The translations under genes and the position numbers were made by a program. From positions 1-31,365 of the forward strand of contig NW_021832185.1 in NCBI RefSeq assembly GCF_006345805.1: a stretch of DNA of 31,365 bases, read 5' to 3'. Shown piece by piece: positions 2,490-30,897 of the stretch. Numbering within the stretch: the first letter of the stretch is position 1; each line of letters opens with the position of its first letter. The notes beneath the pieces were generated by a model. That model was not told the DNA's origin, searched no databases, and saw only the letters and a program-made list of their open reading frames with translations. Source of the DNA: Octopus sinensis. Its lineage: Eukaryota.

Positions 2490-3305
2490 TAGCATGTGGA
2501 GTAACTATCTAAACCTTGGATTAAAGAACAATAATGAGGTAGAGCAATTTAGCAACTATTTCTAGCATTTGAAGTGACCACCTAAGCGATCTCATATATT
2601 TCACTTAAGTTTAAAAAAAGGAAGAGTGGAAAAATTTAGCTGCTGTTTCTAGCATTTGGAATGACCACCTAAACGGTCACATACATTTGACCTAGGGCTA
2701 CATTAGAGCAATGATCATTAGAAGGACTTGTATTCTGTTTCCAGCAACAACGTGCTAGAAATAACAGTCAAATCTGCCTACTTAGAATTGTTCTTTAATC
2801 GTAGGTCCAATGTTTAAAATATTTCAGGTGGGCACTTTATACGCTAGAACTAGCAGTCAAATCTCTTCGCTTATTTTTCTATCGCTAGAGGTTATATATG
2901 AGATCGTTTAAGGAATCGCTTCGTATGATAGAAATAACACTCAAATCTCCACCTACATTATTGTTCTGAAGCACAGGCCAGCTGTATGAAAACGTTTAGA
3001 TGGTCCTTGTTTGTGCAAGAAATAACTTTCCTAATTTTGCCACAAAACCAGTTATTTTGAGGGGAGGGGGAAAGTCAATTGTATTAATCCCAGTGCTCAA
3101 CTGTACACAGTTCATCGATCTCGAAAGGATGAGAAGCAAAGTCAACCTCGATGGCATTTGAACTCAAAACGTAAAGCCAACAATAATGCTATCAAGCATT
3201 TTGTCTGGCGCGGTAACAACTCTGCCAGCTCGCTACTGTTTATGCTAGAAATAACAGCTAAATTCTCCTGATAATCATTGTTCTTTGGCAGTAGGTCAAA
3301 TGTAC
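2490..3305. repeat. Diverged ~90-bp tandem array that switches orientation near 2745
   Basis: ttctagca-type units near 2560, 2648 and 2739; reverse-complement tgctagaaataacag-type units near 2753, 2843, 2926, 3014 and 3243. Confidence 0.75.
3027..3236 (-). mobile_element. SINE family C copy (C2 tail), diverged
   Basis: Matches family C body (aaaggatga..gcaaagtcaacctcg..atttgaactca). Imperfect flanking duplication tgtttgtgcaagaaataac (3008-3026) / tgtttatgctagaaataac (3237-3255). Confidence 0.8.
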
Positions 3306-9763: not shown

Positions 9764-10081
9764 GTGAAGGCGCGTGGCTTAGTGGTTAGGGCATTCGGCT
9801 GACGATTGTAAGGTCGTCAGTTCAATTCCCGGCGACGAGTTGTATCCTTGAGCAAGACACTTTATTTCACGTTGCTCCAGTCCACTCAGCTGGCAAAAAT
9901 GAGTTGAACCTGTATTTCAAAGGGTCGGCCTTGTCACACTCTGTGTCACGCTGAGAACTGCGTTAGGGGTACACGTTTCTGTGGATTGCTGAGTCACTTG
10001 CACGTTAATTTCACGAGCAAACTGTTCCGTTGATCGTATCAGCTGGGACCCTCGTCGTCGTAACCGACGGAGTGCTCCTCT
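9764..10081 (+). mobile_element. SINE family B, full length, with target-site duplication
   Basis: A box tggcttagtgg, B box gttcaattccc, CORE-like tccttgagcaagacacttt; flanked by tattatgacctaa (9751-9763) and tattatgacgtaa (10082-10094). Confidence 0.9.
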
Positions 10082-13734: not shown

Positions 13735-14250
13735 AACCAACAGAACTGCCTCCTCGCAAAATTAACATGCAAGTGGCTGAGCATTCCACAGAACGTGTAC
13801 CCTTAACGTAGTTCTCAGGGAGATTCAGTATGATACAAAAAGTGACAGGCTGACCCTTTGAATTATAGGTACAGCTCATTTTTGCCAGGTGAATGGATTG
13901 GAGCAATGAGAAATAAAGCGTCTTGCTCAAGGACACAACGTGTTGTTGAGTATCGAACTCACGACCTTGAGCCGAATACCTATTTCTTTATTACCCACAA
14001 GGGGCCAAACATAGAGGGGACAAACAAGGACAGACATAGGTATTAAGTCAATTACATCGACCTCAGTGCGTAACTGGTACTTTAATTTATCGACCCCGAA
14101 AGGATGAAAGGCAAAGTCGACCTCGGCGGAATTTGAACTCAGAACGTAACGGCAGACGCAATACCGCAAAGCATTTCGTCCGGCGTGCTAACGTTTCTGC
14201 CAGCTCGCCGCCTTTGAGCCGAATACCGTAACTACTAAACCACGCATCTT
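13735..14250 (-). mobile_element. SINE family B copy interrupted in its tRNA head by a family C SINE
   Basis: Body 13735-13980 matches 9764-10081; the remaining head (aagatgcgtggtttagtagttacggtattcggctc) lies at 14214-14250. Confidence 0.85.
13981..14213 (-). mobile_element. SINE family C (C1 tail), full length, with 14-bp TSD
   Basis: Perfect direct repeat ttgagccgaatacc at 13967-13980 and 14214-14227; central gcctttcatcctttcggggtcgataaa..gtacc resembles the Nin/Deu SINE domain. Confidence 0.93.
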
Positions 14251-23328: not shown

Positions 23329-24053
23329 CATTTTGGGGGGAGGGAACCAGTCGATTAGATCGACCCCAGTACGCAACTGGTACTTAATTTATCGACCCCG
23401 AAAGGATGAAAGGTAAAGTCGAACTCTGCGGAATTTGAACTCGGAACGTAAAGACAGACGAAATACCTATTTCTTTACTACCCACAAGGGGCTAAACACA
23501 GAGAGGACAGACAAGGACAGACAAACGGATTAAGTCGATTACATCGACCCCAGTGCGTAACTGGTATTTATTTAATCGACCCCGAAAGGATGAAAGGTAA
23601 AGTCGACCTCGGCGGAATTTGAACTCAGAACGTAGCAGCAAACGAAATACCTATTTCTTTACTACCCACAAGGGGCTAAACACAGAGGGGACAAACAAGG
23701 ACAAACAAAGGTATTAAGTCGATTACATCGACCCCAGTGCGTAACTGGTACTTAATTTATCGACCCCGAAAGGATGAAAGGCAAAGTCGACTTCGGCGAA
23801 TTTGAACTCAGAACGTAACGGCAGACGAAATACCTATTTCTTTACAGGGGCTAAACACAGAGGGGACAAACAAGGACAGACAAACGGATTAAGTCGATTA
23901 CATCTACCCCAGTGCGTAACTGGTATTTAATTTATCGACCCCGAAAGGATGAAAGTCGACCTCGACGGAATTTGAACTCAGAACGTAACGGCAGACGAAA
24001 TACGGCTACGCATTTCGCCCGGCGTGCTAACGTCTCTGCTAGCTCGCCGCCTT
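23329..24053 (-). mobile_element. Head-to-tail tetramer of SINE family C (one head, three C1 bodies, one C2-tailed body)
   Basis: Junction aaatacctatttcttt at 23461, 23645 and 23828; periods of 184, 183 and 170 bp; single head at 24000-24053. Confidence 0.93.
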
Positions 24054-24403: not shown

Positions 24404-24814
24404 TAAACAAATAAATATATACCAATATGATAATAAAGAATTTCGAAAAGTCTCAAGAATTTTCGAAATACGTCCAAAGGTGCCTTGACAGACAGATGTA
24501 TGTTTATTCTAAAGAATTTCTTGGGGCTTTCATATATTCTTCCACCATTTCGCTGAAATGACCATCATGTCGAGTGTTCAGTATTAAATAAACAGAAAAG
24601 AGAAAGAAACAAACATCCGAATTATAGCCAATTTTTTTTTTTTCAAAACGTTTCACCGTGGTTAAGGCAGCGGCGAAGGAGATGGAGGATGGCGGAATTT
24701 GTTGAGTGTCTGTGTATTTAGTTGCGTACCTTTACGTTTCGTGTTCTAATCTCGCTCTGAGGCGGATTTTATTTTGCGGCCTTACTTGGTCTGACATAAA
24801 GCAGAGAGCTACAT

Positions 24815-25022
24815 AATCGTTAGTATATCGGGTAAAATGCTTAGCGGCATTTTCGTCCTTTTTAAAGTTCTGTGTTCAAATTCCTCTGAGTTGACTTTGC
24901 CTTTCATCCTTCGGGATCGATGAAATAAGATCAGTTGAGCATTAGAGTTAATGTAATCGACTTTATCCACCCCATCACCGCCGAAATTACTGGCTTTGTG
25001 TCAAAATTTGAAGCCAAATATC
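24815..25022 (+). mobile_element. SINE family C (C2 tail), diverged
   Basis: gttcaaattcc...gactttgcctttcatccttcgggatcgatgaaataag. Confidence 0.8.
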
Positions 25023-28989: not shown

Positions 28990-30218
28990 CCAAGTGGCAC
29001 CAAATGGCCAAAAGTCTTCTTGGTTTAAGCAGGAAGTTTAAAATACCATCTAAGCAAAAGAAGCAGGCTTGTTTCCAAGCTTGTAGACTTTTGTTTCGTA
29101 CTTTTGCGCAGGTGGTCGCGAAAAGTTTCAACAGAGACAGTAAAACGTCTAAGGTTTGGTGTTTAGCTGGATCCTGATCGGCATATAAAGCATTCTGGCA
29201 GACAATCTACCAGGATAGTAAGTCTCATAATAAGAAATCCTTTCCCACATCTACTATTAAGAACTCAGCTAGGGTTCTTCTCTCTACGGAGAAAGCATTC
29301 TTGGGAGGTGGAGAGAATACTTTACTAATCTCTTAAATTCAGTCACAATAAAATTTTATGATAGGCACGAGGTTCAGCTAAGAGCGAAGACTAACCTTTA
29401 AAATGCTTGAATGCGGAACTGGGGAAGGGGAAATTCGGCCTGAGATGCTAAAAGCTTTCAATAAAGAAGGTATTTTCTGGCTGACTCGTGTATGCCAGTT
29501 TGCCTAGACCTCAAGAAGGAAACCTAAGCAATGGCTATCCGTGCTGATAATCCCAATTTTATTTTAAGGGGAGACGAGAGAGAGTGCTCTAATTTTAGAG
29601 GAATCTCCTTGTTAAGTCTTCCCCTTGGGGTATACGCTATGTGTCTGGATAAGAGATGAAGCAAAATTATCGAGCAACAAGCTAGCTGAAAAACAGTGCG
29701 ACTCCCGCTGTGAACGCAGCTCAACAGATCTGATATTGACACTGTGCATGTCTTTAAGAGATCCTGGGAATATTCTTTTCTACTCTAGGCACAAGGCCCG
29801 AAATTCTTGGGGGAAGGGGCCAGTCGATTAGATCGACTCCCGTACGCAACTGGTACTCGATGGAATTTGAGCTCAGAACGTTAAGACAGACGAAATAGCC
29901 TGGCGTGCTAACGTTTCTGCTAGTTCGCTGCCTTGAGATCCTGGGAATAATACCAAGAGGTGTAGGTTTGCTTAGAATGTCTCAGGAAAGAATTACAAGA
30001 CAGATTCTTCAAGCCAAGTCAACCAGCAGAAGACCTAGGGGTGGATCAACAATGGGATGGTTTGATAGAATCCATAGTCTCAGACGGTCACGCTTGGGAG
30101 TCCAGACAGAAGGTGTAATGACGTTTTCTTCTGGTAGAAACTTATGGTGGAAGTGCCTGCGGACTCCATCACAAGAACCTCCAACGATTAATGGGTAGCA
30201 GAGATGGACAGATGGATG
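28990..30218 (+). mobile_element. Decayed RTE-clade (Expander/Rex3-like) LINE with internal deletion and a SINE insertion
   Basis: Peptides across frames: KAFWQTI, ILGRWREYFTNLLN, EIRPEMLKAFNKEGIFWLTRVCQFA, ECSNFRGISLLSLP, EKQCDSRCERSSTDLILTL, RSWEY, then C-terminal RMSQERITRQIL...RRPRG...W...SRLGV; GATG-like tail at ~30203-30218. Confidence 0.88.
29773..29934 (-). mobile_element. SINE family C (C2 tail, internally deleted) with 15-bp TSD
   Basis: gagatcctgggaata at 29758-29772 and 29935-29949. Confidence 0.88.
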
Positions 30219-30494: not shown

Positions 30495-30897
30495 CAGCGA
30501 GTGGTAGATACGTTAGCACGCCGGGCGAAATGCTTAGTGATATTTCGTCTGCCACTACCTTCTGAGTTCAAATTCCACCGAGGTCGACTTTGCCTTTCAT
30601 CCTTTCGGGGTCGATTAAATAAGTACTACTTACGCACTGGGGTCGATATAATCGACTTAATCCGTTTGTCTGTCCTTGTTTGTCTTCTCTGTGTTTAGCC
30701 CCTTGTGGGTAGTAAAGAAATAGGTATTTCTTCTGTCTTTACGTTCTGAGTTCAAATTCTTTCGAGGCTGACTTTATCTCATATCCTTTCAGGGTCGATG
30801 AAATAAGTAGCAGTTGAGCACTGGGGTCGGTGTAATCGACTTATCTACTCCCCACCATCGAAAATACTGGGCTTGATGCCAAATTAGAAGCCAATAT
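30495..30897 (+). mobile_element. SINE family C dimer (C1 unit followed by a headless C2 body)
   Basis: Junction gtaaagaaata|ggtatttc at ~30722; second body ends aaattagaagccaata. Confidence 0.88.

What the first reader, a model, noticed from the sequence alone, without database searches (positions are those of the whole stretch)
13967..14227. SINE C1 inserted at GGTATT in the tRNA head of another SINE: possible site-specific SINE
Seen: a full C1 copy with a perfect 14-bp TSD starting GGTATT (minus strand), just 3' of the host SINE B A box. GGTATT is on both sides, so it pre-existed at the target. The same AAAGAAATA|GGTATT junction occurs three times at 23329-24053 and once at ~30722, so all five C1 3' ends in the window share it. 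C2-tailed copies (3027, 29773) sit at unrelated sites. Inference: the C1 tail recruits a sequence-specific retrotransposase or primes by microhomology, making C1 a parasite of Pol III SINE heads.
Basis: partly seen in the sequence, partly recalled or inferred. Interest (0 to 1): 0.75.

Follow-up and report, generated by a model that had tools for sequence, protein, structure and literature searches.

The report
SINE lineages with inherited landing motifs
A very common short jumping repeat (SINE) in this animal genome lands mostly at short motifs that differ between its lineages (GGTAT, AGAAA or TATA); two of these motifs are the spots in its own head where related long jumping genes (LINEs) insert, so it likely borrows their enzyme and likely picks sites with a few read-through RNA bases, and its landing inside another SINE here is incidental.

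Summary
The 14-bp duplication is real and GGTATT is target sequence. But the window's other four junctions join the tail to base 49 of the SINE's own head, so they are not independent targets. Genome-wide, 93,741 tails: 36,529 precede GGTATT, 23,529 of them exact self-junctions. Only 12 exact-pattern insertions lie at the SINE B site, used about 2-3 times as often as a generic GGTATT. Lone copies do have a target motif, 5 bases long and lineage-specific: the focal lineage GGTAT (46 of 57 start GG), a sister lineage AGAAA or TATA, split by body variants far from an identical tail. A young 5.35-kb L1/Tx1-type LINE shares the tail and sits at base 49 in about 97 of 100 listed copies; a sister LINE sits at base 16 (AGAAA). 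The LINE takes C- and G-type sites; the SINE takes almost only G. I favour RNA-tag priming on a Tx1-type nick (0.5) over several partner endonucleases (0.35). The scan noted this system before on other DNA of this genome. New variant of a known kind (SINEU/Tx1-Mar).

The parts
14228..14250 (-). Host SINE B, 5' piece with A-box-like motif (14242-14232; box label from recalled consensus)
   Evidence: aligns to intact B at 9766
14214..14227 (-). Upstream target-site duplication GGTATTCGGCTCAA
13981..14213 (-). Full-length C1 SINE, young 'alpha' lineage (diagnostic TAATACCTATGTC at 14045-14033, TAA tail variant)
14160..14165 (-). C1's own GGTATT at base 49: the self-junction site and the landing site of the partner LINE in other copies
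14194..14198 (-). C1's own AGAAA at base 16: second self-junction site; landing site of a sister LINE and ORF1-only elements in other copies
14128..14140 (-). B-box-like motif of C1 (label from recalled consensus)
13981..14015 (-). 3' tail shared with the LINE (31 of 35 bases identical), same predicted hairpin, not more stable than shuffles
13967..13980 (-). Downstream target-site duplication
13737..13966 (-). Remainder of host SINE B (B-box-like 13960-13948, body); end approximate
23330..24053 (-). Multimer: C1 head (C at base 49) + three tails joined to base 49 (G), last unit with another tail type; end approximate
30497..30897 (+). Dimer: C1, tail joined at 30722/30723 to base 49 of a C2-tailed unit; end approximate
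9766..10075 (+). Intact SINE B copy used as empty-site reference; weak tRNA match at 9775-9833 (18.1 bits, below the 29-bit cut-off)

Best explanation
This is a young copy of a very abundant SINE that landed at a GGTAT motif lying by chance in a SINE B head; the SINE likely borrows the enzyme of L1/Tx1-type LINEs that insert into its own head, and likely chooses among nicks by pairing a few bases read through beyond its tail. Shown: lineage-specific 5-base motifs at the start of the duplication, a shared upstream bias (G/A-A-C), a LINE sharing the tail and sitting at head base 49, and multimers bounded by one duplication. Inferred: (1) the LINE protein binds the tail and nicks with a weak preference after C; (2) site-specific events at head bases 49 and 16 put GGTAT or AGAAA behind the tail of source copies, and landings in TA repeats put TATA there; (3) transcripts run into that flank, the nicked strand anneals to it and primes copying from the tail; (4) daughters land at the same motif, so the preference is inherited through the duplication; (5) many multimers are copied whole from multimer source RNAs.
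For: Motif tracks lineage: non-self starts GG/AG/TAT are 46/2/2 (alpha, +7 other), 3/41/24 (beta, +16), 14/4/2 (gamma, +3), 8/4/11 (delta, +5), p=3e-20; hand counts of listed matches agree: GG in 65 of 85 TAA tails against 2 of 91 CAA tails. The motif is in the upstream duplication of alpha: G 32, G 30, T 35, A 28, T 27, then T 13 of 36. Within beta, AG and TAT landers have the same tail consensus but differ in the body (22/0 against 2/9, p=1.4e-6), with overlapping ages (6.0% and 5.1%); alpha-GG and delta-TAT are both 2.7%. The upstream bias is shared by all classes (-1 C 25 of 64, -2 A 36, -3 G 28) and -2 G, the base in both head sites, is not enriched (9 of 64, p=0.52). The LINE lands on C-type and G-type heads (55 and 43 of 100 listed; base matches on both sides in 20 of 20; no link to LINE lineage, 11 of 20, p=0.33), whereas alpha targets start G 32, C 2 although CGTAT is as common as GGTAT (613 and 554; p=8e-9). 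Self-junctions are G in 23,529 and C in 242; C-headed multimers have a G junction in 9 of 12; 15 of 39 multimers with a non-self end have one duplication around the whole.
Against: No RNA end was seen. The up/down asymmetry test was null: downstream copy nearer the motif in 15, upstream in 10, tie 3 of 28 (p=0.42). An ORF2-bearing sister LINE sits at base 16 (1 of 30 loci), so each of GGTAT and AGAAA has a matching LINE, as the rival needs. Beta-AG and beta-TAT ages differ slightly (p=0.016), so lineage could stand in for time. The sampled LINE family (median 0.5% pairwise) is younger than most SINE copies, and its star-like tree gives the lineage test little power. The G-dominance of self-junctions is explained by copying of multimers under either model. 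The tail hairpin is not better than shuffles.
Confidence: 0.5

Rival explanations
1. Endonuclease only: several sister Tx1-type LINEs, each with its own site (head base 49, head base 16, TA repeats), mobilised different SINE lineages at different times; lone copies mark near-cognate cuts, and the RNA carries no tag.
For: LINE at base 49; a sister LINE (72% ORF2 identity over 425 aa) and ORF1-only elements at base 16; other tail-bearing fragments next to microsatellites; null asymmetry test; Kojima 2015 argues the same for SINEU/Tx1-Mar.
Against: Same tail, different motif within beta. Lone sites lack the -2 G of both head sites. The known LINE accepts C at base 49, including its 1-2% diverged relatives (L230, L232, L234, L240, L248 and the rearranged L237 all on C), while alpha avoids C. 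No TA-targeting partner with ORF2 was found, though the search for one was not direct.
Confidence: 0.35
2. One reading: C1 is a site-specific parasite of the Pol III heads of other SINEs, recognising GGTATT after the A box.
For: 12 real B-head insertions at the same base; single landings in other SINE heads (L022, L171); B-type site used at 0.59% against about 0.2-0.3% for generic GGTATT.
Against: 12 against 93,741 tails. The sixth base is near background (T 13 of 36). C1 also lands in SINE bodies and unique DNA. The generic rate rests on 2-3 of 27 tails, and local SINE density could give a 2-3-fold excess.
Confidence: 0.05
3. The arrays are only DNA-level tandem duplications between GGTATT microhomologies, and the motif in lone copies is a separate weak bias.
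For: Some adjacent units share private changes (L016); SINE-derived satellites are known.
Against: One junction in 23,529 exact cases; units within arrays belong to different lineages; a LINE uses the identical base; lone copies show the same motif in true duplications.
Confidence: 0.1

Closest known systems
SINEU and Tx1-Mar of crocodilians (Kojima 2015, PMC4494074; passages and section 16 read)
   Same: SINE and Tx1-type LINE share a target inside another repeat; SINE families differ in strength of preference; two sites in the target, attributed to different LINE families; tandem SINE insertions.
   Different: There the target is a Mariner DNA transposon. Here it is the SINE's own head, SINE and LINE share a 3' tail, and lone SINE copies carry lineage-specific 5-base motifs.
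Xenopus Tx1 in Tx1D; Keno (U2), Kibi and Koshi (microsatellites) (as summarised in PMC4494074)
   Same: Site-specific Tx1-clade LINE inserting into a multicopy element.
   Different: Target is a tRNA-like SINE head that also depends on the LINE.
RTE-related SINEs incl. AfroSINEs; RNA-target pairing in I factor, R1Bm, R2Ol (Nishiyama and Ohshima 2018, PMC6007223; passages and section 18 read)
   Same: The RNA 3' end is proposed to pair with the nicked strand and to set the first bases of the duplication; near-identical SINEs with different ends give different patterns.
   Different: There the pairing bases are a terminal microsatellite that is part of the element and matches 1-2 bases in animals. 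Here the 5-base motif is not in the element and would be inherited from the flank.
SINE-derived satellites of squamates (PMC10702118, passages) and tandem SINE arrays of bivalves (PMC11481361, passages)
   Same: Head-to-tail units derived from part or all of a SINE.
   Different: Those papers point to recombination and repeated insertion; here the junction coincides with a LINE target site.
Octopus OK, OR1, OR2 SINEs (Ohshima and Okada 1994; seen only as citations) and MetaSINEs (PMC4824008, passages)
   Same: tRNA-like SINEs of molluscs; the C1 body resembles the Meta domain from recall only.
   Different: No sequence comparison was possible, so no family name is assigned.

Membership tests
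tRNA-derived SINE | Short, interspersed, high copy number | tested here: met
   233 bp; 93,741 exact 24-base tails
tRNA-derived SINE | Variable target-site duplications | tested here: met
   92 of 201 non-self ends; mostly 12-20 bp, mode 15 among the 64 with identical first five bases
tRNA-derived SINE | tRNA-related head with A and B boxes | tested here: inconclusive
   No ARAGORN call; Rfam tRNA only for SINE B, 18.1 bits, below cut-off, none for C1; boxes seen by eye from recalled consensus
tRNA-derived SINE | 3' tail shared with a LINE | tested here: met
   31 of last 35 bases identical to L268
tRNA-derived SINE | Transcribed by Pol III | not testable with these tools
   No run on record as RNA; contigs only
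Strictly site-specific SINE (SINEU-3 type) | Near-exclusive insertion in one target | tested here: not met
   46 of 79 unselected tails are non-self, with GG, AG or TAT starts at unrelated sites
Tx1-clade LINE (partner) | ORF2 with APE-type endonuclease, RT and C-terminal zinc motif; ORF1 with zinc knuckle | tested here: met
   PF03372, PF00078, PF13966; ORF1 PF00098; best solved structure human L1 ORF2p, E 2e-64
Tx1-clade LINE (partner) | RT phylogeny within Tx1 | not tested
   No tree with named Tx1 elements; best named hit is a TX1 149 kDa protein, 31% identity
Tx1-clade LINE (partner) | Target-sequence specificity | tested here: met
   About 97 of 100 listed 3' ends (140 found) at head base 49; both ends in the SINE in 20 of 20
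MetaSINE / octopus OR1, OR2, OK | Conserved central domain | not testable with these tools
   Consensus is in figures; 2 supplementary files had no match and file 1 was not searched

The most novel reading that the evidence does not exclude
Target-site memory: each SINE lineage inherits its landing motif through a read-through RNA tag copied from its source copy's own target duplication, not through any base of the element. The tags were seeded by LINEs that home into the SINE's head, closing a loop in which the SINE multiplies the LINE's landing sites and borrows its enzyme; a C variant at base 49 may be a step in an arms race.
Probability: 0.4. Interest if true: 0.75.

Novelty: new variant of a known kind. 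Interest (0 to 1): 0.58.

Why it matters
Target choice of non-LTR elements is usually ascribed to the endonuclease, with RNA-target pairing as a minor helper. Here are roughly 10^5 natural insertions in which lineages with the same tail land at different motifs, next to intact, young partner LINEs. That makes the share of enzyme and RNA directly testable, and bears on programmable retrotransposon insertion. It also gives a route from SINE to tandem array, and an example of a LINE whose safe haven is its own dependent. The single insertion in the window is ordinary.

Tried and rejected
GGTATT as part of the tail: rejected; 39% of tails precede it (36,529 of 93,741) and it is in upstream duplications. 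B heads as a preferred target: rejected. Partner search through the best RVT_1 hits: none of 50 loci read (30 small-contig, 20 chromosomal, of 150 listed) ended in the C1 tail; the partner came from tail-only hits. Up/down asymmetry test for RNA-templated bases: null, and some rows were misaligned. LINE lineage against base 49: no link, low power. Tail folding: not beyond shuffles. tRNA scans: nothing above cut-off. Sequencing runs: no RNA holder listed, contigs only, so no reads were laid. Anzai 2005 was not held. Two searches with a final D exclude junctions with C at the 14th base, so their self-junction shares are biased and were not used. Literature: 8 searches listed no paper on a SINE-targeting LINE or lineage-specific SINE motifs in octopus; subscription journals and Repbase reports are not covered.

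Full report
Observation. The focal element is a 233-bp SINE on the minus strand between two copies of GGTATTCGGCTCAA. It splits a SINE B head just after the A-box-like motif; the rejoined site aligns to the intact B at 9766. All five C1 tails in the window are followed by GGTATT. But four of them continue GGTATTTCGTCTG..., which is C1's own sequence from base 49, in tandem units of period 184. So the window holds one independent target, not five. The host is a repeat-rich animal genome of 2.7 Gb; 'likely an octopus' rests on my recall of octopus repeats and on earlier scan notes, not on a call.

Genome counts. An exact 24-base tail occurs 93,741 times; 36,529 precede GGTATT; 23,529 are exact self-junctions; 4,918 precede GGTA plus A, C or G; 16 precede the B-type GGTATTCGRCT. 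Of those 16, 12 are in B heads including the focal copy, 3 are mutated self-junctions and 1 is unique DNA (read by eye). The B-type 11-mer occurs 2,206 times, so 13 non-self insertions give 0.59% per site, against about 0.2-0.3% for generic GGTATT, 0.05% for GGTAV and 0.001% for any site. The generic figure rests on 2-3 of 27 sampled tails and on k-mer rates from 40 regions of 9.9 kb. B heads are thus incidental. In loci chosen without regard to downstream sequence, 33 of 79 exact tails were self-junctions.

Lone copies have a real motif. I classed 298 tails, leaving out LINE-selected loci L227-276, small-contig RT loci L177-206 and the central matches of searches that fixed the downstream bases; lineage proportions are not representative because 140 loci were picked by tail variant, 80 of them as non-self. 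97 were self-junctions (85 at base 49, 12 at base 16). Among 201 others the start of the flank depended on lineage: alpha, the focal lineage, 46 GG, 2 AG, 2 TAT, 7 other; beta 3, 41, 24, 16; gamma 14, 4, 2, 3; delta 8, 4, 11, 5; unassigned 3, 2, 3, 1. Hand counts of the 100 listed matches per tail variant agree. A duplication was called for 92 of 201. In alpha's upstream copies the motif is GGTAT and the sixth base is near background (T 13 of 36). Upstream of the duplication all classes share a G/A-A-C bias. Beta tails in multimers join base 16 (AGAAA) in 10 of 14 cases, and alpha, gamma and delta tails join base 49 in 70 of 72, so the motif of lone copies equals the lineage's self-junction.

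Partner LINE. Top RT hits did not share the tail. Tail-only hits led to a LINE 3' end joined to base 49 at two loci. Its exact tail occurs 140 times; about 97 of the 100 listed continue into head base 49, 55 on C-type and 43 on G-type junctions (hand count). All 20 copies fetched at length have the SINE head upstream and the SINE remainder downstream, with base 49 the same on both sides. The element is about 5.35 kb, median 0.5% apart, with ORF1 zinc knuckle and ORF2 endonuclease, RT and zinc motif; nearest structure human L1 ORF2p, best named hit a TX1 protein at 31%. Its last 35 bases match the focal tail at 31. Of 30 loci read from 78 matches at base 16, 17 were non-SINE elements: mostly ORF1-like, and one with an ORF2 72% identical to the base-49 LINE.

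Mechanism. Two readings fit. For RNA tags: beta copies with the same tail split into AG and TAT landers by body variants (22/0 against 2/9) at overlapping ages, and alpha-GG and delta-TAT are both 2.7% diverged; lone sites lack the -2 G of both head sites (9 of 64); the LINE takes C and G alike and independent of its own lineage, whereas alpha targets start with G 32 times and C twice though CGTAT is as common as GGTAT. For endonucleases only: each of GGTAT and AGAAA has a LINE at that head site; the asymmetry test for RNA-templated bases was null (15 against 10); ages of the beta groups differ slightly (p=0.016); no RNA end was seen. I put these at 0.5 and 0.35. Multimers are often copied whole: C-headed ones carry a G junction in 9 of 12, C junctions are 1% genome-wide (242), and 15 of 39 have one duplication around the array. 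The 242 C junctions had C heads in most of the loci read, so true self-insertion also occurs.

Comparison. Closest is SINEU with Tx1-Mar (PMC4494074: passages and section 16), where SINE and LINE share a target in a DNA transposon. RNA-target pairing at the 3' end is discussed in PMC6007223 (passages and section 18). Tandem SINE arrays are described in PMC10702118 and PMC11481361 (passages). PMC13282606 (part 1 of 3) lists recently active L1-Tx1 families and many unclassified SINEs in Octopus vulgaris but, in the part read, no target analysis; its supplements were not seen. PMC4824008 and PMC4758252 (passages) cite octopus SINEs without sequence; one supplementary file of the first could not be searched. 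Eight searches listed no account of this system.

Earlier scan notes. I had found the LINE before the first look-up. Notes on other DNA of this genome report the same LINE-in-SINE system and one proposes read-through pairing; they are unchecked and are not counted as support. They led me to the base-16 search and to two papers.

Verdict. The insertion is real and ordinary; the system behind it is a new variant of a known kind. Interest 0.58; 0.75 if inherited RNA tags are shown.

Noticed in passing
L377-L405 (e.g. L380-L382, L388-L390, L398-L402): About 1.7-kb ORF1-like elements in head-to-tail chains at SINE head base 16, sharing the tail; one ORF2-bearing sister LINE (L380) in such a chain.
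   Followed up: partly
SINE head base 49; window 24053-24000 carries the C type: Two head variants (AGCC and AGCG). The young LINE uses C heads in 55 of 98 against 37 of 144 available C or G heads (p=2e-6); could be an escape variant since overtaken, or an age effect.
   Followed up: partly
L058, L175, L209, L089: Fragments of other elements with a similar hairpin-plus-AATAAA tail; L058 and L175 end at TATC microsatellites. Possibly further Tx1-type families with their own targets.
   Followed up: no
L177-L206 (small contigs): The best RVT_1 hits are near-identical young RT elements confined to small contigs, ending in short repeats; flanks of L181 and L188 look like rDNA from recall. May be rDNA-linked elements or DNA of another organism.
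   Followed up: no
L208-L223; L207, L209, L210: A young LINE family ending in a hairpin plus (TTA)n, CR1-like by recall, and an RTE-like family ending in short repeats; neither shares the C1 tail.
   Followed up: no
L015, L111, L237: Junctions with the last 5-6 tail bases copied twice before GGTATT or CGTATT, suggesting slippage at priming.
   Followed up: no
window 3027-3240, 24797-25020, 29773-29934 and many loci: At least two other tails on the same SINE head and body, each with a CCTTGTG-centred hairpin-like motif; many multimers end in one of them. Their target motifs were not tabulated.
   Followed up: no
window 13966-13970: Host SINE B has an 8-bp gap at the far end of the duplication relative to the intact copy at 9766.
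   Followed up: partly
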